Of a stretch of 64,000 bases of DNA, positions 1-59,744 are shown piece by piece. A program made the translations under genes and the position numbers. Source of the stretch: Escherichia coli O157 typing phage 15. Each line of letters opens with the position of its first letter. The first letter of the stretch is position 1. Below the pieces are notes generated by a model, which worked only from the letters and a program-made list of their open reading frames with translations, did not search any database and was not told where the DNA came from. The DNA lies in the sequence record KP869113; one strand, given 5' to 3'.

Positions 1-34
1 AGACACGCGCTTTAACCATATAAGCTACTTGGAC
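1..34 (-). tRNA. partial tRNA (5' half only; rest lies before window start)
   Basis: D-arm-like ttaaccatataagc followed by ta and acceptor 5' strand, same layout as the Ala/Gln tRNAs in this cluster. Confidence 0.35.
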
Positions 35-41
35 TATAAAT

Positions 42-117
42 TGGGGTGACCTACGGGATTTGAACCCGTATAGACCATGTTCACAGCATGGGTCATTACC
101 ATTTATGATAAGGCCAC
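42..117 (-). tRNA. tRNA-His (anticodon GTG), CCA encoded
   Basis: T-arm acggg/atttgaa/cccgt on plus strand; anticodon stem ccatg/catgg with loop ttcacag (codon CAC); acceptor 7 bp. Confidence 0.65.
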
Positions 118-148
118 ATTTAAGGACTCTCGTAAGAATCCTTAGAAG

Positions 149-224
149 TGGCAGCGGCATAAGGATTTGAACCTTAATAGGACAGCTTCAGAGACTGCTG
201 CATTGCCAGTTATGCTATACCGCT
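149..224 (-). tRNA. tRNA-Gln (anticodon CTG), CCA encoded
   Basis: T-arm taagg/atttgaa/cctta; anticodon loop ttcagag (codon CAG); acceptor agcggta/tgccgct. Confidence 0.6.
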
Positions 225-229
225 AAATT

Positions 230-309
230 TGGTACTCCATATCGGATTCGAACCGATACATAACACAGATTTTAAGTCTGGCCTCTCTGCCAATTGGAGT
301 AATGGAGCA
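230..309 (-). tRNA. tRNA with anticodon TAA (Leu-type anticodon, short variable arm)
   Basis: T-arm atcgg/attcgaa/ccgat; anticodon stem caga/tctg with loop ttttaag (codon TTA); CCA encoded; D-arm short. Confidence 0.5.
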
Positions 310-310
310 T

Positions 311-386
311 TGGCGGGGGATGTTGGAATTGAACCAACTTCTTCGATTTCAAAGACCGAGGTTTTAACCTTGTAAACTAATCCCCT
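311..386 (-). tRNA. tRNA-Gln (anticodon TTG), CCA encoded
   Basis: T-arm gttgg/aattgaa/ccaac; anticodon loop ttcaaag (codon CAA); D-arm gttt/aaac. Confidence 0.55.
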
Positions 387-394
387 TTAAATCT

Positions 395-721
395 TTACTT
401 TCTTAGTGGATGAATAAAGAATGCCAACATAACTCTTTCCCTTGAAAATGCTCTTTCTTCTGGGACAACACTTTTAAGTTTCCACCCAACATAAATTCTC
501 CAGTAAAATTGTTTACCAAAGATTTTGATTGACGGCACAAAAGCGAATAATCCCCAAGCATTACTGTTCCACATTAGGAGATAACCAGTCTGATTATCTT
601 CAGGGTTAGAACTTACGTTGATATTACCTTTCCACTTAGTAACATCTTTTACATCTCTTCCTAATACATGGTAAGAGAAGTTATAAGCTTTGTTTCTCCA
701 GAGCCATCCAACTCTCTGCAT
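395..721 (-). CDS. hypothetical protein (N-terminus uncertain, abuts assembly gap)
   Basis: 108-aa ORF immediately 5' of the tRNA block; Trp/Tyr-rich; the N run starts 9 nt upstream of the listed start. Confidence 0.3.
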   Translation of the reverse strand: MQRVGWLWRNKAYNFSYHVLGRDVKDVTKWKGNINVSSNPEDNQTGYLLMWNSNAWGLFAFVPSIKIFGKQFYWRIYVGWKLKSVVPEERAFSRERVMLAFFIHPLRK

Positions 722-730
722 GTAGACACC

Positions 731-1450
731 NNNNNNNNNNNNNNNNNNNNNNNNNNNNNNNNNNNNNNNNNNNNNNNNNNNNNNNNNNNNNNNNNNNNNN
801 NNNNNNNNNNNNNNNNNNNNNNNNNNNNNNNNNNNNNNNNNNNNNNNNNNNNNNNNNNNNNNNNNNNNNNNNNNNNNNNNNNNNNNNNNNNNNNNNNNNN
901 NNNNNNNNNNNNNNNNNNNNNNNNNNNNNNNNNNNNNNNNNNNNNNNNNNNNNNNNNNNNNNNNNNNNNNNNNNNNNNNNNNNNNNNNNNNNNNNNNNNN
1001 NNNNNNNNNNNNNNNNNNNNNNNNNNNNNNNNNNNNNNNNNNNNNNNNNNNNNNNNNNNNNNNNNNNNNNNNNNNNNNNNNNNNNNNNNNNNNNNNNNNN
1101 NNNNNNNNNNNNNNNNNNNNNNNNNNNNNNNNNNNNNNNNNNNNNNNNNNNNNNNNNNNNNNNNNNNNNNNNNNNNNNNNNNNNNNNNNNNNNNNNNNNN
1201 NNNNNNNNNNNNNNNNNNNNNNNNNNNNNNNNNNNNNNNNNNNNNNNNNNNNNNNNNNNNNNNNNNNNNNNNNNNNNNNNNNNNNNNNNNNNNNNNNNNN
1301 NNNNNNNNNNNNNNNNNNNNNNNNNNNNNNNNNNNNNNNNNNNNNNNNNNNNNNNNNNNNNNNNNNNNNNNNNNNNNNNNNNNNNNNNNNNNNNNNNNNN
1401 NNNNNNNNNNNNNNNNNNNNNNNNNNNNNNNNNNNNNNNNNNNNNNNNNN
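731..1450. other. assembly gap (720 N)
   Basis: run of n; the X-filled ORFs across it are artefacts. Confidence 0.99.
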
Positions 1451-1520
1451 CTCACTAAAGGACTTGAACCTTTTTCTTCATCTTGTAAGGGTGATGTTTT
1501 ACCATATAAACTAAGCGAGT
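1451..1520 (-). tRNA. tRNA-Val (anticodon TAC), 3' end lost in gap
   Basis: T-arm aaagg/acttgaa/ccttt at 1457-1473; anticodon loop ttgtaag (codon GTA); D-arm gttt/aaac; acceptor agcgagt. Confidence 0.5.
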
Positions 1521-1616
1521 ATGAAAGAGGTCTGAAGTTGTGCCGCTAACTCAACTTCGTGGAATTTGTTACGGTCTTCAGTTGACTCAAAGCGGTCTTT
1601 CACTTGACCTCTGAAT

Positions 1617-1692
1617 TGGTGCTCCCACAAGGACTCGAACCCTGATAAGTTGCTTACAAGGCAACCGTAATAACCAATTATACGATAGGAGC
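1617..1692 (-). tRNA. tRNA-Thr (anticodon TGT), CCA encoded
   Basis: T-arm caagg/actcgaa/ccctg; anticodon stem gttgc/gcaac, loop ttacaag (codon ACA). Confidence 0.65.
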
Positions 1693-1699
1693 ATTAATT

Positions 1700-1774
1700 T
1701 GGAGCATCCAGAGGGAATCGAACCCTCAACCTCAGTTTGGAAGACTGTAATTTTCCCGTTTAAACTATGGATGC
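1700..1774 (-). tRNA. tRNA-Gly (anticodon TCC), CCA encoded
   Basis: T-arm gaggg/aatcgaa/ccctc; anticodon loop ttggaag (codon GGA); acceptor gcatcca/tggatgc perfect. Confidence 0.65.
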
Positions 1775-1780
1775 ACTAAT

Positions 1781-1856
1781 TGGTGGAGTCACTGAGAATT
1801 GAACTCAGTTCCCAAGTTTGCAAAACTCGAATTTTAACCATATAAACTATGACCCC
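1781..1856 (-). tRNA. tRNA-Ala (anticodon TGC), CCA encoded
   Basis: T-arm ctgag/aattgaa/ctcag; anticodon loop ttgcaaa (codon GCA). Confidence 0.6.
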
Positions 1857-1862
1857 ATTGTT

Positions 1863-1938
1863 TGGTACAGGTGGAGGGAATTGAACCCATCGTCTTACTG
1901 ATTAAGAGTCAGCCGCATAACCATTTTGCTACACCTGC
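1863..1938 (-). tRNA. tRNA-Lys (anticodon CTT), CCA encoded
   Basis: T-loop aattgaa flanked by ggg/ccc; anticodon stem actga/tcagc, loop ttaagag (codon AAG). Confidence 0.55.
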
Positions 1939-1945
1939 ATTAATT

Positions 1946-2022
1946 TGGTACACCTAGAGAGATTCGAACTCACACTGAGCAGATTCTAAGTCTGCTGCCT
2001 CTACCAGTTGGGCTATAGGTGC
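1946..2022 (-). tRNA. tRNA with anticodon TAG (Leu-type anticodon, short variable arm)
   Basis: T-loop attcgaa; perfect anticodon stem gcaga/tctgc with loop ttctaag (codon CTA); D-arm gcct/gggc; 77 nt including CCA. Confidence 0.55.
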
Positions 2023-2103
2023 ATTAAATCTTTTTAGAGAACTTCTAAGAACCTGAGCAACAAGGTTCCACAACAAGCGACTAATAACCTTAGAAGCCCT
2101 CTA

Positions 2104-2126
2104 AAAAGACCTAAATAGGTCTTTGC
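2104..2126 (-). terminator. rho-independent terminator-like hairpin
   Basis: aaagacc-taaatag-ggtcttt perfect 7-bp stem; on the minus strand the stem is followed by a T run. Confidence 0.4.
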
Positions 2127-2280
2127 ATAGTCTTGTTTAATCCGGTGACTAGAACCTTTGGAGAGCTTGATATTATCTCTTCTCCGTGACACCTACTAGG
2201 TGTTTTATCAGTGTGTACAACAATACACGCGGTATACCAAAGCAACATCCGAATGAAGCTTGGCTTTAAATCTTATTAGG

Positions 2281-2368
2281 CGGTAAGTAAAGGAGTCGAA
2301 CCCTCACCGTATCTCTACAGTGGCAACTGTTTTCAAGACAGTTTGGCTACCATTAGCCGCTACCTACC
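2281..2368 (-). tRNA. tRNA-Ser (anticodon TGA), class II long variable arm, no CCA
   Basis: T-loop agtcgaa; anticodon stem actgt/acagt with loop tttcaag (codon TCA); 88 nt; acceptor ggtaggt/acttacc. Confidence 0.6.
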
Positions 2369-2381
2369 CCTAATAAGACTG

Positions 2382-2786
2382 CTAAATACTTAACAGTCCT
2401 GCATGAACTTTCCTATGACAGTTTGAGCAAAGCACAACACACTTACGAACTTCACGCTTAATAGTTCCCCTAGAGTAAGTCTTAAGATTGCTTGGAGCAA
2501 AATCTTTCTCTTTAGGGTCTAAGTGATGAAAATCTAAAGCTACTGGCTCGGATTCACCACATATTCTGCATTTGCAAAACTTTTTATATCTACTAAGGAA
2601 CTCTCTGTTTCTCTTTTTGTCATATTTTGCTCTAACTTTCCTTTTTGCTTTATAAGTAGGGTCTTCTTTGTATCTCTTTGCTGAGTACTTAGCTTTACAA
2701 TCTTTGCAAGCAGACTGATAGCCATTCCCTCTTTTATGAAAGCAACTTAAAGGCTTCTCTTGAGAACATTTTCTACAAAGTTTCAT
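2382..2786 (-). CDS. HNH homing endonuclease
   Basis: 134-aa ORF; Cys-rich zinc-binding N-terminus and C-terminal DFHHLDP...CVVLCSNCHRKVH HNH motif; sits between tRNA genes. Confidence 0.75.
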   Translation of the reverse strand: MKLCRKCSQEKPLSCFHKRGNGYQSACKDCKAKYSAKRYKEDPTYKAKRKVRAKYDKKRNREFLSRYKKFCKCRICGESEPVALDFHHLDPKEKDFAPSNLKTYSRGTIKREVRKCVVLCSNCHRKVHAGLLSI

Positions 2787-2800
2787 ACAAGCACCTTTTC

Positions 2801-2871
2801 TGGCAGGGGTGTAGAGATTCGAACTCTAATCAAGAATTTTGGAGACTCTATTGCTGCCATAGCTCACCCCT
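2801..2871 (-). tRNA. tRNA-Trp (anticodon CCA), CCA encoded, short D-arm
   Basis: T-arm tagag/attcgaa/ctcta; anticodon loop tttggag (codon TGG); acceptor aggggtg/cacccct perfect. Confidence 0.55.
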
Positions 2872-3019
2872 ATTAAAACTATAATTCGAAGCTTACCGTA
2901 TTATCTCAACACTGTAAAGCCCCTTCTCAGATTATTTACATGTTCTGGAAAACATGAGATACAGACCACCTCCCTACAGGAAGACCCGCTTAGGTCGTCT
3001 AAGTAATCTGCTAACTAAT

Positions 3020-3096
3020 TGGCACACCCTACAGGATTCGAACCTGTAACTAACGATTTAGAAGACCGTTGCTCTATCCAATTGAACTAAGGGTGC
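3020..3096 (-). tRNA. tRNA-Arg (anticodon TCT), CCA encoded
   Basis: T-arm acagg/attcgaa/cctgt; anticodon loop ttagaag (codon AGA). Confidence 0.65.
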
Positions 3097-3361
3097 ATTA
3101 ACATTTTAAAGGGTACTCATTGCATTTAAGCCAAGCCCCATAAGGGATACCCTTTAGAATGTTGCCCACCTTATTAATCATACCGTGGGCTAGTACGCCA
3201 AATTCTTTGATGAGGGATTGGAAGACCTCACTGGTGTTTAGCCTATCAAGCTACTGCCAGAAAAACATTGTCGTTTGCATTTATTTTAAATTTGCAAAAT
3301 AGACGCTACGCAACGAAAACTAAGGTTACTATAAAGTAGTCACATCTCAATGTCAACAACT

Positions 3362-3437
3362 TTATTGAAATTGGTACTGGTAGGTGGAATCGAACCACCG
3401 ATGTTCCCTTATCAGGGGAGTGTTATAACCTTCTTAA
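3362..3437 (-). tRNA. tRNA-Ile (anticodon GAT), CCA encoded
   Basis: T-arm ggtgg/aatcgaa/ccacc; anticodon loop ttatcag (codon ATC). Confidence 0.6.
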
Positions 3438-3438
3438 C

Positions 3439-3515
3439 TATACCAGCTTGGAGGTTCAGATGGGAATCGAACCCACATTCATAGGGCTTATGAGACCCTT
3501 GCATTACCTTATCTG
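3439..3515 (-). tRNA. tRNA-Met (anticodon CAT), CCA encoded
   Basis: T-loop aatcgaa; anticodon stem agggc/accct, loop ttatgag (codon ATG); acceptor ggttcag/ctgaacc perfect. Confidence 0.6.
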
Positions 3516-3603
3516 CGACTGAACCAGAATAAGTACCCTAGTTAGAGAAACTGTTGAGTGGGTGTTTCCAGCCGCGCAGGTGTTTCTTAGTTAAGGGTGA
3601 ATT

Positions 3604-3679
3604 TGGTAGAAGTGGAGGGATTCGAACCCATCGCCTGTCAGATTAAAAGTCTGCCGCATCACCATTCTGCTACACTTCC
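3604..3679 (-). tRNA. tRNA-Lys (anticodon TTT), CCA encoded
   Basis: T-arm almost identical to the Lys-CTT gene; anticodon loop ttaaaag (codon AAA). Confidence 0.55.
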
Positions 3680-3684
3680 ATTAA

Positions 3685-3836
3685 ATTATCTTTGTAGATA
3701 AGCTACCCAGACTTGCTTAAGGTCTGTAGCGATGTGCCTTTTTGGGTTTAAATCTAGAATTTACCCTTTCACCCTTTGTGGTCGCATACTCACAGGTAAG
3801 CTTAATAACTTATCTACAAAGATAATTACCAGACCG
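3685..3836. repeat. perfect 18-bp inverted repeat (attatctttgtagataag / cttatctacaaagataat) enclosing about 116 nt
   Basis: read directly from sequence; arms at 3685-3702 and 3819-3836. Confidence 0.8.
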
Positions 3837-3964
3837 TTGTTTATCATCTTAAGTGCTACCATTACACCAACTCGACATCTGCCGAGTGAAGGAATCGAAC
3901 CTTCGCCTTTTCTTTACCGGAGAAATAGATTGTTTAAGTTTTGCTGTAAACGGTCTTCTGTAAA
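3837..3964 (-). ncRNA. structured RNA, family copy 1 (closing helix agaccgtt/aacggtct) with embedded tRNA-like T-arm
   Basis: conserved 5' box ttaccagacc and 3' box ttgctgtaaacggtcttctg; inside it gaagg/aatcgaa/ccttc T-arm plus gtg-taatggtag-cac D-arm-like hairpin, but no pairable acceptor 5' strand. Confidence 0.45.
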
Positions 3965-3971
3965 TTTGTTG

Positions 3972-4046
3972 AGCCAGACCAAGTTTTAAATTTTTCAAAA
4001 TTAAATTGGCTTGAAATTTTAAATAACTTGCTGTATTTGGTCTTCT
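3972..4046 (-). ncRNA. structured RNA, family copy 2 (closing helix agaccaa/ttggtct)
   Basis: same boxes (gccagaccaag ... ttgctgtatttggtcttctg); compensatory base changes in the helix relative to copy 1. Confidence 0.4.
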
Positions 4047-4106
4047 GCTCCTTTAAAGAATACTCGTAAGAACCCTTTAAGGGAGGGGCTAAATAGCCCT
4101 CTCAAA

Positions 4107-4184
4107 ATTGGCGGTTACGAAGGGATTTGAACCCTCATCATCTCCCGTGACAGGGGAGTATTTTAACCAAATTAAACTACATAA
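4107..4184 (-). tRNA. tRNA-Asp (anticodon GTC), CCA encoded
   Basis: T-loop atttgaa; perfect anticodon stem ctccc/gggag, loop gtgacag (codon GAC). Confidence 0.65.
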
Positions 4185-4189
4185 CCTTT

Positions 4190-4277
4190 ATTGGTGTGCC
4201 GTGTAGGAGTCGAACCTACCGAGTCTCAATGACAAGGGATTTACAGTCCCCACCGCTACCATCTACGGGATAACGAC
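4190..4277 (-). tRNA. tRNA-Tyr (anticodon GTA), class II long variable arm, CCA encoded
   Basis: T-arm gtagg/agtcgaa/cctac; anticodon stem ggga/tccc, loop tttacag (codon TAC); 88 nt. Confidence 0.6.
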
Positions 4278-4346
4278 ACATTTAATTTCTATTCAGGCTA
4301 AGGACTTGTACCTTACAAATCGGTGAGCAATCGCTTCTCTCCTAAA

Positions 4347-4423
4347 TTTGGCGGTTAGTCAGGGATTCGAACCCTGTGCCATTCGCTTAACAGGCGACCG
4401 CACATACCTTATGTGCTTCCTAA
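4347..4423 (-). tRNA. tRNA-Asn (anticodon GTT), CCA encoded
   Basis: T-arm caggg/attcgaa/ccctg; anticodon loop ttaacag (codon AAC). Confidence 0.6.
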
Positions 4424-4433
4424 CCATGTTTAG

Positions 4434-4503
4434 TATTACCAGACCGTATATTTCAATTTTTTCCGCTAAAAATTTAATAAATATTGCTGTAAACGGTCTT
4501 CTG
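4434..4503 (-). ncRNA. structured RNA, family copy 3 (closing helix agaccgt/acggtct, AT-rich loop)
   Basis: ttaccagaccgt ... ttgctgtaaacggtcttctg; no tRNA-like insert. Confidence 0.4.
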
Positions 4504-4509
4504 TAAATT

Positions 4510-4586
4510 TGGAGGCGGGTGCAGGAGTCGAACCTGCCGATACCATGCTAATGAGACATGTGAGACGCCCTTTCTCTATACCCGCA
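4510..4586 (-). tRNA. second CAT-anticodon tRNA (Met, fMet or Ile-lysidine type), CCA encoded
   Basis: T-arm gcagg/agtcgaa/cctgc; anticodon stem catgc/acatg, loop taatgag (codon ATG). Confidence 0.55.
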
Positions 4587-4605
4587 ATTCTTAATGACCA
4601 GACCA

Positions 4606-4672
4606 AATATCTTCTTTGTCCGATTAACTTTCAGATGAGTAGATTAAGTTTGCTGTAATTGGTCTTCTGTCA
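4606..4672 (-). ncRNA. structured RNA, family copy 4 (closing helix agaccaa/ttggtct)
   Basis: gaccagaccaaat ... ttgctgtaattggtcttctg; covaries with copies 1 and 3. Confidence 0.4.
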
Positions 4673-4677
4673 AAACT

Positions 4678-4755
4678 GGCGTTCCAGAAGGGATTTGAAC
4701 CCTCAAATATCCACTTTGAAAGAGTGGTGACTTTACCATTTTGTCTACTGGAACA
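4678..4755 (-). tRNA. tRNA-Glu (anticodon TTC), CCA encoded
   Basis: T-loop atttgaa; perfect anticodon stem ccact/agtgg, loop ttgaaag (codon GAA); acceptor gttccag/ctggaac perfect. Confidence 0.65.
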
Positions 4756-4762
4756 TTAATTT

Positions 4763-4842
4763 GGTCTCCGTTGAAGGATTTGAACCCTCGACCCCTTGCT
4801 CCCAAAGCAAGTGCTGCTAAACCAGACTGAGCTAAACGGAGA
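4763..4842 (-). tRNA. tRNA-Pro (anticodon TGG), CCA encoded
   Basis: T-loop atttgaa; perfect anticodon stem cttgc/gcaag, loop tcccaaa (codon CCA); acceptor ctccgtt/aacggag perfect. Confidence 0.65.
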
Positions 4843-5006
4843 TAAACTTTTCAAACTTTATGTAACCACTTTAACATTATTTTTTAGTGGTTGTCAAGAA
4901 CTTTTTTAAAATATTTTTCAGCATCTTAGAAAAGCTCTCATTTCGTTTCTATGTAGAACATATTAAAGGGTATTAAACACATTGTCAATACCCTTTTTAA
5001 AACTTT

Positions 5007-6422
5007 TTACCAGATATAACGGTCAATCATTACTGCTTTGAGCATTACACTGATTGGGTCAAACTTCTCACCACCAAGCAGAGCTTTTAAAGTGGCTGGA
5101 GAGAACCCTGATACCATTGCTACACCGTTATCCTTAACAGATACTTCGCAAGTACCATTACGGTTTGCTAAGTACCAGAATACCAGTTGTGGCATCTCAT
5201 ATCCAGCTTTTTTGTACTTACTCTGAATTGCTTCAAAGTTTGTACGACCGTTAGCTCCATCAACCTGATTAAACTCCATATCGGAGAAGATGATAAGCTT
5301 ACTTGGCATATCTTTCTGAGTCAAGTTGTTTCTTTTACCTGTTTCAAGAATGCGGTCAAAAGCTGCTTGTAAGTTAGTTGAGCCATATTCAACGTGTCGC
5401 ATCACCTGACGATGACGGTTTCGTAAATCACCACTCAGTTCGATGAAGTGAGGGTTTGTTGAATAAACCATCAACTCATTCTTAAAGCAACCTGTATTGC
5501 GTTCTGCTACATACAAGGCAAGTGATACACCAATATCCAGAGCAGTAATGGAGCCAAAATTCACCCAAGACATTGAACTTGATACATCAGACATACACAA
5601 GATGTTTTCACCTTCTGCCATCCAGTTTGGTAGTGCTTTCCACTGCTCATTAGCAACATCTGCATTACCATACTTGACAGATTTAATCACATCGTATGGG
5701 TAAACAGCACCAGCGTTAATCTTAGTCTCACCTTTTGATAAGGACTCGATGTAAGCTTTGTAACGCTCTCCATCTTTACGGTTAAACAGTTTTTGGTAAC
5801 GTGCAGCAGCAAGTGAAGGAATCTTACTGTAGTCAATCTTACCAAACTCATTAGCAGAGATTTTTTGCTCAACTGTATCAGATAGTGCAGACAACAGTGT
5901 GCGGTACTCTTTCTCACTCAAGTTGGCAAACTTGCAGAAACGTTTTACAAACTGCTTATGACGTGGTTTGACTCGTGGTAACCACTTAGCCGCCAAACCT
6001 GCTGTTGCAGGGTCTAGTAATGCTGCTTCTAAATGTTTGAAGGCATCTGTCTCGAAACGAGTACCTACGAAGATTTTGAAGTCATCAAAACGACCAAGTT
6101 CTGCAATCTTATCCATAATGCGAAGAACCTGCGTAGACTCTAAAACTTTGTCTTCAATCGCTTGAAGTAAAACAGCTCTGAAGGCTTTACGCTCACCCAT
6201 ACCTTCTCGTACATCTCGCATATGCAGTAAAATACGAACTGCAACATCAACATCCTCACGCAAAGCTTTGTAGAACAGGTCTGGTAAGATTTCTACATTG
6301 CTACGGCTTGAACCAGCAGCTTTGTAAAAGTCTACAAGAGCAGACATTGATGAAGTATGGTTTACAGCACCATTTTCAGTTCGACCTGCATGAAGGTGCG
6401 CATGTTTAAATAACTCGCTCAT
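5007..6422 (-). CDS. vWA (MIDAS) domain protein with N-terminal alpha-helical domain; Ro60/TROVE-like or DUF2828-like architecture
   Basis: 471-aa ORF; C-terminal ILCMSDVSSSMSW (DxSxS MIDAS) ... LIIFSDMEF typical of vWA fold; first gene downstream of the tRNA/ncRNA block. Confidence 0.6.
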   Translation of the reverse strand: MSELFKHAHLHAGRTENGAVNHTSSMSALVDFYKAAGSSRSNVEILPDLFYKALREDVDVAVRILLHMRDVREGMGERKAFRAVLLQAIEDKVLESTQVLRIMDKIAELGRFDDFKIFVGTRFETDAFKHLEAALLDPATAGLAAKWLPRVKPRHKQFVKRFCKFANLSEKEYRTLLSALSDTVEQKISANEFGKIDYSKIPSLAAARYQKLFNRKDGERYKAYIESLSKGETKINAGAVYPYDVIKSVKYGNADVANEQWKALPNWMAEGENILCMSDVSSSMSWVNFGSITALDIGVSLALYVAERNTGCFKNELMVYSTNPHFIELSGDLRNRHRQVMRHVEYGSTNLQAAFDRILETGKRNNLTQKDMPSKLIIFSDMEFNQVDGANGRTNFEAIQSKYKKAGYEMPQLVFWYLANRNGTCEVSVKDNGVAMVSGFSPATLKALLGGEKFDPISVMLKAVMIDRYIW

Positions 6423-24454: not shown

Positions 24455-24934
24455 TTAACCGAGGACTTTAGCAAGGATATTTGCAGCCATCGAAGAAGCT
24501 TTTGCAGCAGCAACTACGCCAGCTTTGACAGTGCTATCCTTAATAGCAGATACCGTTGCAGCATCAGTAAAGAGATAAGTGATTGTTTTGGAACCACTTG
24601 TAAAGGAAAGCATAAGGGTAGTTTCCAGATTGAAAGAGCGATACGGAGCACCTTCTTTAACGATACCTTCAGCACCTAACTCTGAAGCCTTACCCATATC
24701 ATAGATAGTCATCAGGTTTTCTTTGTGTGCAGTCGTTGAACCAACACCTTTTACGTGCTTCTTAACGTTCAACAATGCACGATATTCACGAATGCTACCA
24801 TCAGCTTTTACATTAACAGCACGGAAAATTTTACCTTCAAAGTTACCTTGAATCATTTTACGAACTACTTCAGATTTGTTTGCCGTATCGTCCAGTGCTA
24901 CCGTAATGATATTGTTCATAAGTTCTTCTCTCAA
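24455..24934 (-). CDS. hypothetical protein
   Basis: 159-aa ORF. Confidence 0.5.
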   Translation of the reverse strand: MREELMNNIITVALDDTANKSEVVRKMIQGNFEGKIFRAVNVKADGSIREYRALLNVKKHVKGVGSTTAHKENLMTIYDMGKASELGAEGIVKEGAPYRSFNLETTLMLSFTSGSKTITYLFTDAATVSAIKDSTVKAGVVAAAKASSMAANILAKVLG

Positions 24935-25626
24935 TGTTTAACTAACATGGTTTTAATGTGTGGAAGGATTCTGTTTACCTTCTGAACATTCTTCTCTGTA
25001 TCTTCTATAAAGCATACTATATTAAAGTAAGGAAGAATGCAAGACTGAATCATCCTCACTTTCAAACTTTCTGCACTTATAGAGTTAGTTCCAAAACCAC
25101 GCATAAAAAGCAAGTAATCATGCTCTATATTGTGCCTTAAAAACATCTCAGTAGGTATTCTCTGAGATTCACCTCTTGCTGTCAAGAGTCCAACTGCTGC
25201 ATGATTTGCAATTGCATCAATAATGTTGAAAACATATGTTGGTTTTGCTCTTACAGAATCAAGAAGATTAGTGTACTGTGAGAATGACCCATCAGTCAAT
25301 TCCGTTGAGCAATCTTCGTGATTAAAATTTGTAAGAACACCATCAATATCTGCTAAGATGAGGTTACCTTTTTCTACAAGGTCTTTATTGACTATCACTA
25401 AACTATCACGCCTTACACCTATAGTTTGTCCAGTCTCTTTGTCCACAACGTTCACAATGGGTTCTGATGTGTGGAACTCTTCAAGTGAACATACAACCTC
25501 TCTTGCAGTGTCTTCAAAATCTCTGCACTGTTCTGGAGTCCATACACAGGAATCAAGACCTAACTCATGAGGATGCAAGTCATAAGCGTGGCACAGGACT
25601 TCATCAGACTTTCTTAATTTTTTCAT
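24931..25626 (-). CDS. HAD-superfamily phosphatase or nucleotidase-like protein
   Basis: LILADIDGVL (DxDG motif I), GLLTAR (motif II), later FIED acidic motif. Confidence 0.45.
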   Translation of the reverse strand: MKKLRKSDEVLCHAYDLHPHELGLDSCVWTPEQCRDFEDTAREVVCSLEEFHTSEPIVNVVDKETGQTIGVRRDSLVIVNKDLVEKGNLILADIDGVLTNFNHEDCSTELTDGSFSQYTNLLDSVRAKPTYVFNIIDAIANHAAVGLLTARGESQRIPTEMFLRHNIEHDYLLFMRGFGTNSISAESLKVRMIQSCILPYFNIVCFIEDTEKNVQKVNRILPHIKTMLVKH

Positions 25627-49385: not shown

Positions 49386-49749
49386 CTCTTCGTTGTAGTT
49401 CTGCCTTCAATCCATTTTCAATCTTGTCCAGTTCATGAATTTCATCTGCAATCTCTTTCCTTCGTGATTCAACTCTCTTAAGACGTTCAATCATTACCTC
49501 ATTGGAAAGAGATGAGAGTTCCACTAAACGGTGGTCAATAACTTTNNNNNNNNNNNNNNNNNNNNNNNNNNNNNNNNNNNNNNNNNNNNNNNNNNNNNNN
49601 NNNNNNNNNNNNNNNNNNNNNNNNNNNNNNNNNNNNNNNNNNNNNTCAACTCTCTTAAGACGTTCAATCATTACCTCATTGGAAAGAGATGAGAGTTCCA
49701 CTAAACGGTGGTCAATAACTTTAAAATTGTCTTTTACTCTCATCTTCAT
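49372..49749 (-). CDS. hypothetical coiled-coil protein (interrupted by artefactual gap)
   Basis: ORF spans N run 49546-49645 whose flanks are identical, so the true protein is shorter than listed. Confidence 0.3.
   Translation of the reverse strand: MKMRVKDNFKVIDHRLVELSSLSNEVMIERLKRVXXXXXXXXXXXXXXXXXXXXXXXXXXXXXXXXXXKVIDHRLVELSSLSNEVMIERLKRVESRRKEIADEIHELDKIENGLKAELQRRGANV
49546..49645. other. assembly gap (100 N) flanked by identical 76-bp sequence
   Basis: 49470-49545 equals 49646-49721. Confidence 0.95.
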
Positions 49750-51364: not shown

Positions 51365-51964
51365 TTATTTCTCTCTCAGTTGGTTAAGTTTCTTTCTAGA
51401 GCATTTTAAGTTTTCAGATGAAGAAAAGTCAAGTGTCTTTTCAGAACGTGGATAGTAATGCCTGTCCCAAGAAGTTTCAACATCGTTAATCAGTGATGCT
51501 AGATTACACAGGTCTGTACCACTTTGCAACCTCTTTTTAAGAGAATCTAGTAAAGCAACTGTATCTTTAGCTTTACGTCTAGCTATAGCAACGTCTTTCA
51601 TATGCTCGAACACAGAGCATTTTAAGTCATCTTCATAGTCTTCTGATAACTCTATTTCATGTTGTATATCAACCATTCTCCTGTGATGGTGAGCATATTC
51701 CCGTTGAGCAGCAATGTCAAGTTCNNNNNNNNNNNNNNNNNNNNNNNNNNNNNNNNNNNNNNNNNNNNNNNNNNNNNNNNNNNNNNNNNNNNNNNNNNNN
51801 NNNNNNNNNNNNNNNNNNNNNNNNAACTCTATTTCATGTTGTATATCAACCATTCTCCTGTGATGGTGAGCATATTCCCGTTGAGCAGCAATGTCAAGTT
51901 CTTCCAACTTCTGCAAAGCTCTAACAAAGTCAGCTATGTCTGGGTGAACAAACATTTTCTGCAT
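51365..51964 (-). CDS. hypothetical protein (interrupted by artefactual gap)
   Basis: ORF spans N run 51725-51824 with duplicated flanks. Confidence 0.3.
   Translation of the reverse strand: MQKMFVHPDIADFVRALQKLEELDIAAQREYAHHHRRMVDIQHEIEXXXXXXXXXXXXXXXXXXXXXXXXXXXXXXXXXXELDIAAQREYAHHHRRMVDIQHEIELSEDYEDDLKCSVFEHMKDVAIARRKAKDTVALLDSLKKRLQSGTDLCNLASLINDVETSWDRHYYPRSEKTLDFSSSENLKCSRKKLNQLREK
51725..51824. other. assembly gap (100 N) flanked by identical 76-bp sequence
   Basis: 51649-51724 equals 51825-51900. Confidence 0.95.
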
Positions 51965-54845: not shown

Positions 54846-55817
54846 NNNNNNNNNNNNNNNNNNNNNNNNNNNNNNNNNNNNNNNNNNNNNNNNNNNNNNN
54901 NNNNNNNNNNNNNNNNNNNNNNNNNNNNNNNNNNNNNNNNNNNNNNNNNNNNNNNNNNNNNNNNNNNNNNNNNNNNNNNNNNNNNNNNNNNNNNNNNNNN
55001 NNNNNNNNNNNNNNNNNNNNNNNNNNNNNNNNNNNNNNNNNNNNNNNNNNNNNNNNNNNNNNNNNNNNNNNNNNNNNNNNNNNNNNNNNNNNNNNNNNNN
55101 NNNNNNNNNNNNNNNNNNNNNNNNNNNNNNNNNNNNNNNNNNNNNNNNNNNNNNNNNNNNNNNNNNNNNNNNNNNNNNNNNNNNNNNNNNNNNNNNNNNN
55201 NNNNNNNNNNNNNNNNNNNNNNNNNNNNNNNNNNNNNNNNNNNNNNNNNNNNNNNNNNNNNNNNNNNNNNNNNNNNNNNNNNNNNNNNNNNNNNNNNNNN
55301 NNNNNNNNNNNNNNNNNNNNNNNNNNNNNNNNNNNNNNNNNNNNNNNNNNNNNNNNNNNNNNNNNNNNNNNNNNNNNNNNNNNNNNNNNNNNNNNNNNNN
55401 NNNNNNNNNNNNNNNNNNNNNNNNNNNNNNNNNNNNNNNNNNNNNNNNNNNNNNNNNNNNNNNNNNNNNNNNNNNNNNNNNNNNNNNNNNNNNNNNNNNN
55501 NNNNNNNNNNNNNNNNNNNNNNNNNNNNNNNNNNNNNNNNNNNNNNNNNNNNNNNNNNNNNNNNNNNNNNNNNNNNNNNNNNNNNNNNNNNNNNNNNNNN
55601 NNNNNNNNNNNNNNNNNNNNNNNNNNNNNNNNNNNNNNNNNNNNNNNNNNNNNNNNNNNNNNNNNNNNNNNNNNNNNNNNNNNNNNNNNNNNNNNNNNNN
55701 NNNNNNNNNNNNNNNNNNNNNNNNNNNNNNNNNNNNNNNNNNNNNNNNNNNNNNNNNNNNNNNNNNNNNNNNNNNNNNNNNNNNNNNNNNNNNNNNNNNN
55801 NNNNNNNNNNNNNNNNN
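54846..55817. other. assembly gap (972 N)
   Basis: run of n; left flank duplicated at 59745, right flank duplicated at 60718. Confidence 0.99.
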
Positions 55818-59644: not shown

Positions 59645-59744
59645 NNNNNNNNNNNNNNNNNNNNNNNNNNNNNNNNNNNNNNNNNNNNNNNNNNNNNNNN
59701 NNNNNNNNNNNNNNNNNNNNNNNNNNNNNNNNNNNNNNNNNNNN
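59645..59744. other. assembly gap (100 N)
   Basis: run of n. Confidence 0.99.

What the first reader, a model, noticed from the sequence alone, without database searches (positions are those of the whole stretch)
1..4842. Large tRNA cluster (at least 22 genes) with an anticodon set overlapping known anticodon-nuclease targets
Hand-folding gives His, Gln x2, Val, Thr, Gly, Ala, Lys x2, Ser, Trp, Arg, Ile, Met/CAT x2, Asp, Tyr, Asn, Glu, Pro and two Leu-anticodon tRNAs, almost all with encoded CCA. From established knowledge, host tRNA-Lys, Arg-TCT and the QUN set (His, Asn, Asp, Tyr) are targets of anticodon nucleases, so part of this repertoire may act as counter-defence as well as codon supplementation.
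Basis: partly seen in the sequence, partly recalled or inferred. Interest (0 to 1): 0.5.

Follow-up and report, generated by a model that had tools for sequence, protein, structure and literature searches.

The report
Known phage tRNA cluster hiding Y-like RNAs
This is the well-known tRNA gene cluster of a Felix O1-like coliphage, best explained by codon supply rather than a specific anti-nuclease role; its spacers also hold four unannotated structured RNAs, one a tRNA mimic, that go with the neighbouring Ro60-like protein gene.

Summary
20 of 21 readable 3' ends encode CCA, and a 23rd gene is cut by the window edge. The window is a Felixounavirus whose relatives carry 26 annotated tRNAs for all 20 amino acids, so the cluster is already known and overlap with any nuclease-target list is automatic. 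Codon usage explains much of it (p=0.008). The counter-defence reading has no specific support. Anticodon loops of Lys, Arg-UCU, Asn, Asp, Tyr and Thr equal the host's. Thr and Asn carry the T5-like U39G change at the PARIS cut site, but Lys(UUU) keeps U39-C40 and Lys(CUU) has the exact host motif. Targets differ from the host no more than non-targets and show no extra variation across Ounavirinae. It remains possible by analogy with T5. Unexpectedly, four conserved, covarying stem-bulge RNAs lie in the spacers; one has the YrlA order V-T-acceptor-D. The adjacent DUF2828/DUF7788 gene folds as Ro60. The RNA-protein pair recurs in distant phages: 31 of 75 loci, 23 within 500 nt, P about 2e-16. 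Annotators already call this protein Ro-like in mycobacteriophages, so these are new members of a known kind.

The parts
1..34 (-). 5' part of a 23rd tRNA gene cut by the window edge (tRNA-Phe GAA by synteny)
   Evidence: Reverse complement reads GTCCAAGTAGCTTATATGGTTAAAGCGCGTGTCT. The anticodon stem start CGTGT-CT matches the Ounavirinae Phe-GAA stem-loop CGTGTCTGAAAAACATG. wV8 and TP1 have tRNA-Phe next to His.
42..117 (-). tRNA-His (GTG)
   Evidence: ARAGORN; Rfam 53.3 bits; loop differs from host at positions 32 and 38
149..224 (-). tRNA-Gln (CTG)
230..308 (-). tRNA-Leu (TAA)
311..386 (-). tRNA-Gln (TTG)
395..730 (-). C-terminal part of a DUF7338 ORF; continues into the N mask
   Evidence: Pfam PF24027 1e-31; phrog_2143; homolog of wV8 gp53
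731..1450 (.). N-masked block; relatives carry tRNA-Arg(ACG) and tRNA-Leu(CAA) here
   Evidence: synteny in wV8, Sf13 and TP1
1448..1521 (-). tRNA-Val (TAC); 3' end hidden by the mask
1617..1692 (-). tRNA-Thr (TGT); positions 36-41 are UAAGCA, as in T5
1700..1774 (-). tRNA-Gly (TCC)
1781..1856 (-). tRNA-Ala (TGC)
1863..1938 (-). tRNA-Lys (CTT), an isoacceptor the host lacks; positions 36-41 are UAAUCA
   Evidence: host lacks it per PMC12482277
1946..2022 (-). tRNA-Leu (TAG)
2023..2118 (-). 26-bp leader hairpin directly abutting the 5' end of tRNA-Leu(TAG)
   Evidence: inverted repeat I1; MFE -37.6 kcal/mol, z -6.9
2279..2368 (-). tRNA-Ser (TGA), long variable arm, no encoded CCA
2382..2786 (-). 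HNH homing-endonuclease ORF inside the cluster
   Evidence: phrog_2255 1.5e-45; weak Pfam HNH; wV8 gp50; absent from TP1
2801..2871 (-). tRNA-Trp (CCA), short D-arm; forms a variable cassette with the HNH gene
   Evidence: Rfam 33.2 bits; absent from TP1
3020..3096 (-). tRNA-Arg (TCT)
   Evidence: AGA codon +3.5 log2 versus host
3097..3168 (-). leader hairpin abutting the 5' end of tRNA-Arg(TCT)
   Evidence: inverted repeat I3; z -2.4
3328..3356 (-). sigma-70-like promoter (TTGACA-17-TATAGT, 11/12) for the Arg-Trp-HNH-Ser sub-cluster
   Evidence: consensus match only
3372..3447 (-). tRNA-Ile (GAT)
3449..3525 (-). tRNA with CAT anticodon (elongator Met or Ile2; not resolved)
3604..3679 (-). tRNA-Lys (TTT); loop equals host; positions 36-41 are UAAUCU
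   Evidence: stem-loop invariant in 36 Ounavirinae copies
3680..3828 (-). 149-nt structure closed by a 24-bp stem, abutting the 5' end of tRNA-Lys(TTT)
   Evidence: inverted repeat I2; MFE -48.3 kcal/mol, z -7.2
3821..3968 (-). E1: YrlA-like tRNA-mimic RNA. Terminal bulged helix, CAGCAA box, V hairpin, T-arm, closed acceptor-like hairpin, D-arm.
   Evidence: folds; CM R1 172.5 bits and R2 115.5 bits; covariation; conserved in 245 phage records and unannotated in most rows listed (a hypothetical protein in a few)
3966..4056 (-). E2: short Y-like stem-bulge RNA with the same terminal helix and box
   Evidence: box pattern; fold z -2.7; helix covariation
4050..4108 (-). two small hairpins between tRNA-Asp and E2
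4109..4186 (-). tRNA-Asp (GTC)
4192..4279 (-). tRNA-Tyr (GTA), long variable arm
4349..4425 (-). tRNA-Asn (GTT); positions 36-41 are UAAGCG
4431..4511 (-). E3: short Y-like RNA that exactly fills the CAT-tRNA to Asn spacer
   Evidence: R1 57.8 bits, R2 41.7 bits
4510..4586 (-). atypical tRNA with CAT anticodon: U1.C72 mismatch, U37, 3 nt between acceptor and D stems
   Evidence: ARAGORN; no Rfam hit at E<=5; cloverleaf MFE; same stem-loop in 33 Ounavirinae copies
4590..4677 (-). E4: short Y-like RNA that exactly fills the Glu to CAT-tRNA spacer
   Evidence: R1 35.8 bits, R2 30.3 bits
4677..4754 (-). tRNA-Glu (TTC)
4762..4841 (-). tRNA-Pro (TGG), first gene of the cluster in the direction of transcription
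4868..4988 (-). two sigma-70-like promoters (TTGACA-18-TAAAGT with TG; TTGACA-17-TAATAT) upstream of tRNA-Pro; the upstream one overlaps a 12-bp hairpin that starts just outside this range (4996-4965)
   Evidence: consensus matches only
5007..6422 (-). Ro60-like ring protein gene (DUF2828 + DUF7788; labelled 'RNA-binding protein'), co-oriented and immediately upstream of the cluster
   Evidence: Pfam; phrog_850; AF2 pLDDT 86.6; Foldseek top 10 all full-length Ro60/TROVE, E 2.5e-8 to 3e-6; invariant MIDAS residues D279, S281, S283, T349, D381

Best explanation
The region is the tRNA gene cluster of a Felix O1-like (Felixounavirus) coliphage. In relatives it holds 26 tRNAs for all 20 amino acids; this window carries the Trp gene that TP1 lacks, so its full set may number 27. 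It is a nearly self-sufficient decoding set. In family boxes it consists mostly of U34 tRNAs that read the A-ending codons this 38% GC phage over-uses. The genes lie on one strand behind sigma-70-like promoters, often 1-8 nt apart, and almost all encode their own CCA. They are most likely made as polycistronic precursors and cut out by host RNase P and 3' processing enzymes, then charged by host synthetases. Their main effect is to sustain translation of phage genes whose codon and amino-acid demand (AGA, ACA, UCA, CCA, CUA, UUA; Lys, Asn, Tyr) exceeds what the host pool supplies, and to keep translation going if the host pool falls. Any protection against tRNA-cutting defences would be a by-product of this supply, or would rest on untested determinants. 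Interleaved with the tRNAs, and released by the same processing, are four Y-RNA-like RNAs, one of them a tRNA mimic. These most likely bind the Ro60-like protein encoded just upstream to form an RNP for RNA quality control or turnover. Shown here: the genes, their order, conservation, codon match, RNA structures with covariation, the protein fold, and the RNA-gene linkage. Inferred: transcription units, processing, charging, RNP formation and function.
For: Gene calls. Identity of the phage and conservation of the cluster: 207 records cover at least 80% of the region, with the same order in wV8, TP1 and Mooglevirus (PMC12482277). Complete 20-amino-acid set in relatives. Codon match: (p=0.008; p=0.024 when the five relatives-inferred tRNAs are included). 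Promoter-like sites at 4988, 4897 and 3356 with 10-11 of 12 matches, and no terminator-like site on the transcribed strand between the tRNAs. Y-like RNAs: four copies at syntenic positions in 27 of 31 Ounavirinae loci. Terminal helix 99.8% paired, 5 of 11 pairs compensatory, covariation 0.435 versus 0.150 shuffled. E1 consensus fold with three compensatory pairs in the acceptor-like stem. Ro60 fold of the neighbouring protein. RNA-gene linkage in distant phages: 31 of 75 loci, 23 with the nearest hit within 500 nt versus about 11% expected (P about 2e-16), and all 49 hits on the gene strand. Covariation in that set: 30 of 32 pairs compensatory, 0.788 versus 0.211. Counterparts beside the gene in Mycobacterium, Listeria, Staphylococcus and Campylobacter phages. 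tRNA genes within 1.5 kb of the gene in 21 of 75 distant loci, co-oriented. In Listeria phage CKA15 the homolog lies downstream of the tRNAs and nearby unannotated regions are highly transcribed (PMC12282133).
Against: No expression, processing or charging data exist for this phage. Promoter calls are no more frequent than in shuffled sequence (14 versus 13.4). The codon test uses mechanically called ORFs and about 100 kb of host DNA, and for two-codon boxes it cannot discriminate. For His, Asn, Asp and Tyr the exactly cognate NAC codon is slightly under-used relative to the host (-0.2 to -0.4 log2). The Sf14 study (PMC12482277) favours replacement of a destroyed host pool over codon bias. Binding of the RNAs to the Ro60-like protein is inferred from linkage only. 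The conserved box is CAGCAA, not the GNCGAA motif of YrlA. The protein has no significant sequence match to TROVE. The covariation alignment of distant hits was fitted to the model.
Confidence: 0.72

Rival explanations
1. One reading: part of the repertoire (Lys, Arg-UCU, His, Asn, Asp, Tyr, and Thr for PARIS) is kept because it replaces or outlasts host tRNAs cut by anticodon nucleases (PrrC, PARIS AriB, retron-Eco7 PtuAB, colicin-like toxins), through nuclease-resistant sequence variants or high expression.
For: The mechanism is proven for T5. T5 tRNA-Lys, Thr and Asn neutralise PARIS (PMC11464382, PMC12409363). T5/SP15 tRNA-Tyr overcomes retron-Eco7, and phage tRNA-Lys of several genera overcome PrrC170 while E. 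coli tRNA-Lys hardly does (PMC11555353). Here Thr (UAAGCA) and Asn (UAAGCG) lack U39 of the AriB motif, as their T5 counterparts do. Lys-UUU has A41U at the cleaved phosphodiester. Lys-CUU is an extra isoacceptor with C34. Most BASEL Felixounavirus phages escape the tRNA-cutting retron Eco2 (PMC12916289). Strong sigma-70-like promoters precede the cluster.
Against: Overlap with target lists is automatic for a set covering all 20 amino acids. Loops of Lys, Arg, Asn, Asp, Tyr and Thr equal the host's. Lys-UUU keeps U39-C40, and U39A was the change that abolished cleavage in T5; Lys-CUU carries the exact host motif UAAUCA. Targets are not more diverged from the host than non-targets and are not more variable among Ounavirinae; the Lys, Tyr and His stem-loops are invariant. 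The related Sf14 study rejected nuclease escape (PMC12482277). No T4-like healing pathway is evident: the 'polynucleotide kinase' ORF has no Pfam or PDB match and no RNA ligase is annotated.
Confidence: 0.3
2. Host-independent translation ('all-destructive' infection): the phage degrades the host chromosome, or the host tRNA pool decays, and the complete phage set simply replaces it. Codon matching is then secondary.
For: The full cluster covers all 20 amino acids with one or two tRNAs each. 20 of 21 genes encode CCA, which reduces dependence on host CCA addition. This is the conclusion of the Sf14 analysis: tAI of late genes is highest with the phage pool alone (PMC12482277).
Against: No evidence in this window for host-DNA or tRNA degradation functions. 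The set still depends on host synthetases, modification enzymes and RNase P. The codon-usage signal shows the anticodon choice is matched to demand, not arbitrary.
Confidence: 0.45
3. The four spacer elements are not Ro60 partners. They are processing or stability signals for the tRNA precursors (RNase III or RNase E sites, transcription attenuators), or remnants of a small mobile repeat, and E1 is a decayed or permuted tRNA pseudogene.
For: They sit flush between tRNAs. Other long hairpins without the box also abut tRNA 5' ends. E1 gives a weak partial tRNA hit (22 bits). The model's tRNA-like core also gives partial hits at or next to real E. coli tRNA genes. The 5' motif differs from the YrlA GNCGAA.
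Against: A pseudogene would not keep a closed acceptor hairpin through three unrelated compensated sequences. The same architecture with the CAGCAA box occurs next to the Ro60-like gene in phages that have no tRNA nearby, for example mycobacteriophage GuuelaD. The nearest hit lies within 500 nt of the gene in 23 of 31 loci, P about 2e-16. All hits share the gene's strand. E2 lacks any -35 box, so a promoter role does not explain the repeat.
Confidence: 0.15

Closest known systems
tRNA cluster of Felix O1 / wV8 / typing phage 1 and of Mooglevirus Sf13, Sf14, Sf19 (Ounavirinae)
   Same: Same genes in the same order on one strand, 85-98% DNA identity, the same flanking Ro60-like gene and terminase side. 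The tRNAs are annotated in GenBank records, and Sf14's were analysed computationally (PMC12482277).
   Different: Small cassette differences: the HNH + tRNA-Trp block is present here and in wV8 but absent in TP1, and tRNA-Pro has a different stem-loop variant. No record inspected annotates the four spacer RNAs as RNA genes.
Phage T5 tRNA-rich region and its counter-defence tRNAs (Lys, Thr, Asn versus PARIS; Tyr versus retron-Eco7)
   Same: A large cluster of about 24 tRNAs interspersed with HNH endonucleases and stable non-tRNA RNAs. Thr and Asp anticodon stem-loops are identical or nearly so. Thr and Asn share loss of U39.
   Different: Unrelated phage family. T5 tRNA-Lys has U39A + A41C, whereas here only A41U. 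No experimental evidence exists for this phage. T5's 'tRNA-like stable RNAs' are not matched by the Y-like RNA model (no L008 hit at E<0.01), and no Tequintavirus appears in the rows listed for the Ro60-like protein search (T5 itself was not checked).
Bacterial Rsr (Ro60) with YrlA/YrlB Y RNAs (Salmonella Typhimurium, Mycobacterium smegmatis; PMC4201824)
   Same: The RNA is encoded next to the Ro60-type gene on the same strand. Module order is 5' motif - V - T - acceptor-like stem-loop (sequence not conserved) - D - 3' end. A shorter partner RNA lacks the tRNA-like domain. T and D loops are tRNA-like.
   Different: The protein is not a sequence-detectable TROVE member (DUF2828/DUF7788). The conserved single-stranded box is UUnCAGCAA rather than GNCGAAN0-1G. 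Both strands of the terminal helix are retained, with a conserved AGA/G internal loop in Ounavirinae. There are four copies, embedded between tRNA genes rather than in an rtcBA repair operon.
Phage Ro60 - Y RNA pairs: Thermus phage phiLo phiRo60 with Yrl1/Yrl2 (PMC12135203), mycobacteriophage 'Ro-like RNA binding protein', Listeria phage CKA15_055 (PMC12282133)
   Same: Best structural matches are 9KOP and 9L5Y of phiLo. The mycobacteriophage and Listeria proteins are full-length sequence homologs (29-34% identity, E 1e-60 to 1e-77), and my RNA model finds counterparts beside them. In CKA15 the gene follows the tRNA region on the same strand and nearby unannotated regions are highly transcribed.
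   Different: The phiLo RNAs carry a CGAA motif and were shown to bind the protein and PNPase; nothing has been tested here. For Felix O1-like phages I found no published description of the RNAs.

Membership tests
Phage-encoded tRNA gene cluster (Ounavirinae type) | Cloverleaf tRNA genes recognised by independent predictors | tested here: met
   22 of 22 by ARAGORN. 20 of 22 reach the RF00005 gathering score of 29 bits (19 in the gathering-threshold scan; Trp at 33.2 bits in E-value mode). Tyr is found only against the long-arm tRNA-Sec model (29.6 bits, below its cut-off). One CAT gene is seen only by ARAGORN (and by tRNAscan in relatives).
Phage-encoded tRNA gene cluster (Ounavirinae type) | Synteny and sequence identity with the annotated clusters of Felix O1-like phages | tested here: met
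   207 records cover at least 80% of the region at 85-98% identity. Same order in wV8, TP1, Sf13, Sf19 and HP1.
Phage-encoded tRNA gene cluster (Ounavirinae type) | Expression and aminoacylation during infection | not testable with these tools
   No transcript or charging data available.
Nuclease-evading phage tRNAs (T5 type; anticodon-loop mutation model, PMC10264068) | Anticodon-loop differences from the host isoacceptor in the targeted tRNAs | tested here: not met
   Lys-UUU, Arg-UCU, Asn, Asp, Tyr and Thr loops are identical to E. coli K-12; only His differs (32, 38). Non-targets differ more often: 0.9 versus 0.29 changes. Same result for Sf14.
Nuclease-evading phage tRNAs (T5 type; anticodon-loop mutation model, PMC10264068) | Substitutions at the PARIS AriB site U36AAU39C40|A41 | tested here: inconclusive
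   Thr is UAAGCA and Asn is UAAGCG (U39G, as in T5). Lys-UUU is UAAUCU (only position 41 changed). Lys-CUU is UAAUCA, the host motif. Position 39 differs from the host in 57% of targets and 60% of non-targets.
Nuclease-evading phage tRNAs (T5 type; anticodon-loop mutation model, PMC10264068) | Signs of an arms race: elevated stem-loop variation of target tRNAs among related phages | tested here: not met
   4.1 versus 4.0 variable positions. Lys-UUU, Lys-CUU, Tyr and His are invariant in 25-36 copies.
Nuclease-evading phage tRNAs (T5 type; anticodon-loop mutation model, PMC10264068) | Demonstrated resistance to cleavage, or rescue of infection | not testable with these tools
   Requires cleavage assays and plating on PARIS, PrrC and retron-Eco7 strains.
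Ro60 / TROVE ring proteins | HEAT-repeat ring followed by a vWA domain (overall fold) | tested here: met
   AF2 pLDDT 86.6, pTM 0.86. The ten best PDB matches are all full-length Ro60/Rsr/phiRo60, E 2.5e-8 to 3e-6, TM up to 0.65. Only vWA domains follow.
Ro60 / TROVE ring proteins | MIDAS motif DxSxS...T...D in the vWA domain | tested here: met
   D279, S281, S283, T349 and D381 are invariant in 40 sequences down to 40% identity.
Ro60 / TROVE ring proteins | Sequence membership in Pfam TROVE (PF05731) | tested here: not met
   Pfam gives DUF2828 + DUF7788 only. phmmer against PDB finds nothing. The profile gives Ro60 at E 0.5-0.9, restricted to the vWA part.
Ro60 / TROVE ring proteins | Binding of Y RNA or misfolded RNA | not testable with these tools
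   Needs RIP, EMSA or a structure.
YrlA-type Y RNAs | Encoded adjacent to, and co-oriented with, the Ro60-type gene | tested here: met
   In the window the RNAs lie 330-1186 nt downstream of the gene on the same strand. In distant phages 23 of 31 loci have one within 500 nt, with all 49 hits co-oriented.
YrlA-type Y RNAs | tRNA-like domain in the order V - T - acceptor-like stem-loop - D, with conserved T and D arms and a variable acceptor stem | tested here: met
   RNAalifold on 10 Ounavirinae variants. 17 distant hits with 30 of 32 pairs compensatory. Description of YrlA read.
YrlA-type Y RNAs | 5' motif GNCGAAN0-1G (putative Rsr contact) | tested here: not met
   The conserved box is UUnCAGCAA: CAGCA in 14 of 16 distinct distant sequences, and the same box in the Ounavirinae copies and in the Mycobacterium, Listeria and Staphylococcus phage hits whose alignments were shown.
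YrlA-type Y RNAs | Match to a curated covariance model | tested here: not met
   No Rfam 15 family other than a 22-bit partial tRNA hit covers E1. None covers the distant hits. The authors' own YrlA model was not available.
YrlA-type Y RNAs | tRNA-type modifications, RNase P sensitivity, Ro60 binding | not testable with these tools
   Experimental.

The most novel reading that the evidence does not exclude
The tRNA cluster is one arm of a conserved three-part RNA module: a Ro60-like ring protein (DUF2828/DUF7788), a family of Y-like RNAs with a UUnCAGCAA box including a YrlA-type tRNA mimic, and tRNA genes. This module recurs in hundreds of unrelated virulent phages of Gram-negative, Gram-positive and actinobacterial hosts. 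In Felix O1-like phages the Y-like RNAs are cut out of the tRNA precursors themselves. If the RNP monitors, stabilises or recycles tRNAs (phage tRNAs are markedly less stable than host ones), or recruits host PNPase during tRNA damage, it would link phage tRNA clusters mechanistically to RNA surveillance and possibly to tRNA-targeting immunity. That link has not been described for these phages.
Probability: 0.45. Interest if true: 0.65.

Novelty: new member of a known kind. Interest (0 to 1): 0.4.

Why it matters
The tRNA genes themselves add nothing new. They are annotated in near-identical published genomes, and the idea that phage tRNAs counter tRNA-cutting defences is established for T5. 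The value of the check is twofold. First, it shows that a complete decoding set cannot be read as a list of nuclease targets, and that sequence tests (loops, the PARIS site, a null model, variation among relatives) give no specific signal here. A claim of counter-defence for Felix O1-like phages therefore needs experiments. Second, the supposedly empty spacers of a much-used model and therapeutic phage group contain four conserved structured RNAs tied to a Ro60-like protein. The same pairing extends from mycobacteriophages to Listeria, Staphylococcus, Campylobacter and Vibrio phages. This gives a tractable E. coli/Salmonella system in which to ask what phage Ro60-Y RNA particles do and why they so often sit beside tRNA genes.

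Tried and rejected
1. E1 as a circularly permuted or split tRNA gene. Rejected: there is no anticodon arm, the acceptor stem is closed by a loop, and the terminal helix is shared with three non-tRNA paralogs.

2. The repeated box as a promoter (TTTACA / TTGACA). Rejected: both sides covary as a helix and E2 lacks any -35 box.

3. The Rfam tmRNA_permuted hit at 3246-3430 (29.2 bits, gathering score 47) and the tmRNA hit at 3226-3287 (11.9 bits). Rejected as cross-hits: the first overlaps tRNA-Ile and both score far below cut-off.

4. The Plastid-ycf2 and miRNA Rfam hits are antisense tRNA or noise.

5. A T4-style tRNA healing pathway. The ORF annotated 'polynucleotide kinase' (24931-25626) has no Pfam or PDB sequence match and I see no P-loop, only a HAD-like DxDGxxT motif. 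No RNA ligase is annotated in the parts of the TP1 record examined, about 60 of 88.5 kb.

6. T5's stable tRNA-like RNAs as relatives of E1. No model hit in the T5 locus at E<0.01.

7. An arms-race signature in target tRNAs. None found.

8. Supplementary tables of PMC4201824 (list of phage YrlA) and Supplementary Fig. 14 of PMC11555353 (sources of the tested tRNA-Lys) could not be retrieved. Two Ro60/Y RNA reviews are not held.

9. Sequence-level link of the protein to Ro60. Not significant; only the fold shows it.

10. Exact mapping of the three highly transcribed CKA15 regions onto the A511 hits. Coordinates do not allow it; left open.

Full report
**Observation.** ARAGORN finds 22 tRNA genes in the window, all on the minus strand between 42 and 4841.
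- Rfam's tRNA model finds 19 at gathering score and Trp at 33.2 bits in the more permissive mode.
- Tyr, which like Ser is a long-arm tRNA, scores best against the tRNA-Sec model in the permissive mode; Ser also passes the tRNA model at gathering score.
- The CAT gene at 4510-4586 is missed by Rfam, but it folds as a cloverleaf and is called by tRNAscan-SE in relatives.
- Twenty of the 21 readable 3' ends encode CCA. Ser does not, and the Val 3' end runs into a block of N at 731-1450.
- The first 34 bases of the window are the 5' part of a further tRNA. It is Phe-GAA, judged by synteny and by its anticodon-stem sequence.

**What the sequence is.** The region matches 389 phage records, and 207 of them cover at least 80% of it at 85-98% identity. 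All the best matches are Felix O1-like phages of E. coli, Salmonella and Shigella. From 5400 to 30000 the window is 99.9% identical to Escherichia typing phage 1, TP1. In TP1, wV8 and the Mooglevirus phages Sf13, Sf19 and HP1 the same tRNAs occur in the same order. wV8 and TP1 each carry 26 tRNAs, including Arg-ACG and Leu-CAA where this window is masked, and Phe, Ser-GCT and Cys beyond the window edge. Counted over both relatives, all 20 amino acids are served. The tRNA genes are annotated in those records. The cluster of the related phage Sf14 has been the subject of a dedicated computational study (PMC12482277). The tRNA cluster is therefore already known.

**Codon usage.** I compared 58 long ORFs of the window (13,247 codons) with 50 long ORFs from 100 kb of E. 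coli K-12 (21,193 codons).
- Degenerate codons exactly cognate to the window's tRNAs are over-used by the phage relative to the host: median log2 RSCU ratio 0.67 versus 0.15, Mann-Whitney p=0.008.
- The strongest cases are AGA (+3.5), ACA (+1.85), TCA (+1.7), CCA (+1.7), CTA (+1.5), TTA (+1.4) and GCA (+1.2). AAG, read by the host-absent Lys-CUU, is at +0.66.
- Lys, Asn and Tyr are used 1.5-1.9 times more often than in the host.
- For the two-codon boxes read by G34 tRNAs (His, Asn, Asp, Tyr) the exactly cognate NAC codon is not over-used. There the test cannot discriminate.

Codon and amino-acid demand thus explains much of the repertoire, though not all of it.

**The counter-defence reading.** A set covering 18 amino acids in the window and 20 in relatives overlaps any target list by construction, so the overlap carries no information.

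1. *Anticodon loops.* The 7-nt loops of Lys-UUU, Arg-UCU, Asn, Asp, Tyr and Thr are identical to the host's. Only His differs, at positions 32 and 38.
2. *PARIS site.* The literature gives precise determinants for PARIS. AriB cuts at U36AAU39C40|A41, and T5 tRNA-Lys escapes through U39A and A41C (PMC12409363).
   - Thr (UAAGCA) and Asn (UAAGCG) have lost U39, as their T5 counterparts have.
   - The main target, Lys-UUU, keeps UAAUC with only A41U.
   - Lys-CUU carries the exact host motif UAAUCA.
3. *Null model.* Most of the phage's tRNAs differ from the host in the stem. Position 39 is changed in 57% of presumed targets and 60% of non-targets, stem changes are 5.7 versus 5.0, and loop changes are 0.29 versus 0.9.
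4. *Variation among relatives.* Across about 35 Ounavirinae loci the target tRNAs are not more variable (4.1 versus 4.0 variable stem-loop positions). Lys-UUU, Lys-CUU, Tyr and His are invariant in 25-36 copies.
5. *Repair enzymes.* I found no T4-like tRNA repair set.

On the other side, identical loops do not prove sensitivity. T5 tRNA-Lys has the host loop and AriB does not cleave it (PMC12409363). Phage tRNA-Lys of several genera rescue phages from PrrC170, while E. coli tRNA-Lys under the same promoter hardly does (PMC11555353). AriB also reads determinants outside the stem-loop. Counter-defence therefore remains possible by analogy, but nothing in this sequence argues for it specifically.

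**Layout and likely operation.** Three sigma-70-like promoters with 10-11 of 12 consensus matches lie on the transcribed strand: two upstream of tRNA-Pro (4988, 4897) and one upstream of tRNA-Arg-UCU (3356). These are consensus matches only, and such matches are no more frequent here than in shuffled sequence. Many tRNAs are 1-8 nt apart, which suggests polycistronic precursors processed by host enzymes. An HNH endonuclease ORF (2382-2786) lies next to tRNA-Trp. That cassette is present in wV8 and absent from TP1. Very stable long hairpins directly abut the 5' ends of tRNA-Lys-UUU (3680-3828, z -7.2), tRNA-Leu-UAG (2023-2118, z -6.9) and tRNA-Arg-UCU (3097-3168, z -2.4).

**Structured RNAs in the spacers.** Four copies of a conserved element lie on the tRNA strand: E4 4590-4677, E3 4431-4511, E2 3966-4056 and E1 3821-3968.
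- *Shared features.* Each has a 4-bp outer stem, an invariant AGA/G internal loop, the helix AGACC/GGUCU extended by two covarying pairs, and a single-stranded box UACAGCAA.
- *Position.* E3 and E4 exactly fill the spacers Glu to CAT-tRNA and CAT-tRNA to Asn, so normal tRNA processing would release them.
- *Conservation.* 27 of 31 Ounavirinae loci, from Felixounavirus, Mooglevirus and Suspvirus, hold all four at syntenic positions; at least some of the rest are too short to include all four positions.
- *Covariation of the terminal helix.* Over 40 distinct copies it is 99.8% paired, and 5 of 11 pairs show compensatory double changes. The covariation score is 0.435, against 0.150 in shuffles (0 of 500 reach it) and at most 0.131 in slid registers.
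- *E1.* This copy additionally encloses a small hairpin, a T-arm with loop UUCGAUU, a closed 7-bp acceptor-like hairpin and a D-arm-like hairpin with a GG loop. Among 16 distinct variants the acceptor-like hairpin exists in three unrelated sequences that all pair, while the T and D arms stay constant.
- *Comparison with YrlA.* This is the order V - T - acceptor stem-loop - D described for YrlA-type bacterial Y RNAs (PMC4201824).
- *Annotation.* The element is present in 245 phage records and is unannotated, or overlapped by a hypothetical ORF. No Rfam family covers it.

**The neighbouring gene.** The ORF at 5007-6422 lies immediately upstream of tRNA-Pro and is co-oriented with it. It matches Pfam DUF2828 + DUF7788 and PHROG 850, 'RNA-binding protein'. 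It has no significant sequence match to any solved structure, even as a profile. An AlphaFold model built on 40 homologs is confident (pLDDT 86.6, pTM 0.86). Its ten best PDB matches are all full-length Ro60 proteins: Thermus phage phiLo Ro60, Xenopus and human Ro60, and Deinococcus Rsr, with E from 2.5e-8 to 3e-6 and TM-score up to 0.65. Only isolated vWA domains follow. The MIDAS residues DxSxS...T...D are invariant in the family. By fold, the protein is a Ro60 homolog.

**Linkage of RNA and protein beyond this phage group.** I fetched 75 loci from viral contigs that encode relatives at 38-47% identity.
- *First model.* A covariance model of E1 found 17 full-length matches at E below 0.002, all on the gene's strand. 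They share the architecture and the box UUnCAGCAA, with entirely different helix sequences. 93.2% of cells are paired, 30 of 32 pairs are compensatory, and covariation is 0.788 versus 0.211 in shuffles and at most 0.133 in slid registers. The caveat is that this alignment was fitted to the model.
- *Second-iteration model.* It found full-length matches in 31 of the 75 loci. In 23 of them the nearest match lies within 500 nt of the gene, where about 11% would be expected (binomial P about 2e-16). All 49 matches are co-oriented with the gene.
- *Control.* 100 kb of E. coli DNA gave only two partial hits, at or next to real tRNA genes.
- *tRNA genes nearby.* tRNA genes lie within 1.5 kb of the gene, co-oriented, in 21 of the 75 loci.

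**Novelty of this part.** A tblastn search shows the protein family in 709 cultured phage records. These include 95 Mycobacterium phages, where it is already annotated 'Ro-like RNA binding protein'. They also include Listeria A511/P100-like, Staphylococcus, Campylobacter, Vibrio, Bacillus and Enterococcus phages. At full sensitivity the RNA model finds the following:
- a complete tRNA-like form with the UACAGCAA box 93 nt downstream of the gene in mycobacteriophage GuuelaD (55 bits);
- a short form 13 nt downstream of the gene in a Staphylococcus phage;
- three tandem elements just upstream of A511 gp57;
- one element between tRNA-Met and the gene in a Campylobacter phage.

Y RNAs next to Ro60-type genes were reported bioinformatically for mycobacteriophages in 2014 (PMC4201824), and a phage Ro60-Y RNA complex has been solved (PMC12135203). 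In Listeria phage CKA15 the homolog was linked to Rsr by HHpred. It lies downstream of the tRNA genes on the same strand, and unannotated regions nearby are among the most highly transcribed parts of that genome. The authors speculated that those are Y RNAs (PMC12282133). I found no paper linking DUF2828 to Ro60, and none describing these RNAs in Felix O1-like phages, but the library lacks most subscription journals. The fair description is new members, with a distinct conserved box, of a known kind.

**Verdict.** The finding as written is real but ordinary: a known tRNA cluster. Its make-up is best explained as a codon-matched, nearly self-sufficient decoding set. The anti-nuclease interpretation is an analogy that the sequence neither supports nor excludes. 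The part worth following up is the set of four unannotated Y-like RNAs interleaved with the tRNAs, and their Ro60-like partner.

Noticed in passing
window 5007-6422 (-) with 3821-3968, 3966-4056, 4431-4511, 4590-4677 (-): A Ro60-fold protein gene (DUF2828/DUF7788) directly upstream of the tRNA cluster, and four conserved, covarying stem-bulge RNAs with a UACAGCAA box in the tRNA spacers. One is a YrlA-like tRNA mimic. They are not annotated as RNA genes in any record I inspected. The pair recurs in distant phages.
   Followed up: yes
window 4510-4586 (-): The CAT-anticodon tRNA flanked by E4 and E3 is atypical: U1.C72 mismatch, U at position 37, 3 nt between acceptor and D stems, and no Rfam tRNA hit even at E<=5. 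Its stem-loop is identical in 33 Ounavirinae copies. It lacks the three G-C pairs of a canonical initiator, and its role is unclear.
   Followed up: partly
window 3680-3828, 2023-2118, 3097-3168 (-): Very stable long hairpins (24-26 bp stems; z -7.2, -6.9, -2.4) directly abut the 5' end of the first tRNA of three sub-clusters (Lys-UUU, Leu-UAG, Arg-UCU). They could be RNase III-type processing or stabilising elements. Conservation was not examined.
   Followed up: partly
window 2382-2871 (-): The HNH endonuclease ORF plus tRNA-Trp form a cassette present here and in wV8 but absent from the otherwise 99.9% identical typing phage 1. This suggests homing-endonuclease-linked gain or loss of a tRNA gene.
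   Followed up: partly
window 1863-1938 (-) and 1617-1692, 4109-4186 (-): tRNA-Lys(CUU) is an isoacceptor the host lacks, and it carries the exact host PARIS motif UAAUCA. The Asp anticodon stem-loop is identical to that of the unrelated phage T5 and the Thr one differs at a single position (Thr is 80% identical overall), which hints at a shared phage tRNA pool or convergence.
   Followed up: partly
window 24931-25626 (-): An ORF annotated 'polynucleotide kinase' in the closest RefSeq record has no Pfam or PDB sequence match and, by eye, no P-loop, only a HAD-type DxDGxxT motif. The label looks unsupported, and no RNA ligase is annotated in the parts of that record I examined (about 60 of 88.5 kb).
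   Followed up: partly
L002 10701-10782, L003 6896-6997 (E. coli K-12): The tRNA-like core of the Y-like RNA model gives partial hits at or next to real E. coli tRNA genes. The L002 hit spans the glyT-thrT junction, where T-arm, acceptor strands and the next D-arm follow in the same order. That suggests how such tRNA mimics could arise from a tRNA-tRNA junction.
   Followed up: no
L108 1386-1798; L055 11696-11922; L121 (Listeria phage A511) 189-1910: Distant Ro60-like loci are RNA-gene islands: a two-piece tmRNA (100.7 bits) in L108, a group I intron in L055, and tRNA genes upstream of the A511 homolog.
   Followed up: no
window 731-1450, 49546-49645, 51725-51824, 54846-55817, 57596-57801, 59645-59744, 60794-60893, 62558-62657: Runs of N mask parts of the window. 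They explain the low GC readings at 1-2000 and 54-56 kb. The first hides two tRNA genes, judging from relatives.
   Followed up: partly
L008 (phage T5) 6285-6645, 7809-7980, 8839-9084, 9878-9950: The T5 tRNA region is annotated with several 'stable RNAs' and 'tRNA-like stable RNAs of unknown function' between tRNA genes. They are not matched by the Y-like RNA model, so they form a different family in an analogous position.
   Followed up: partly
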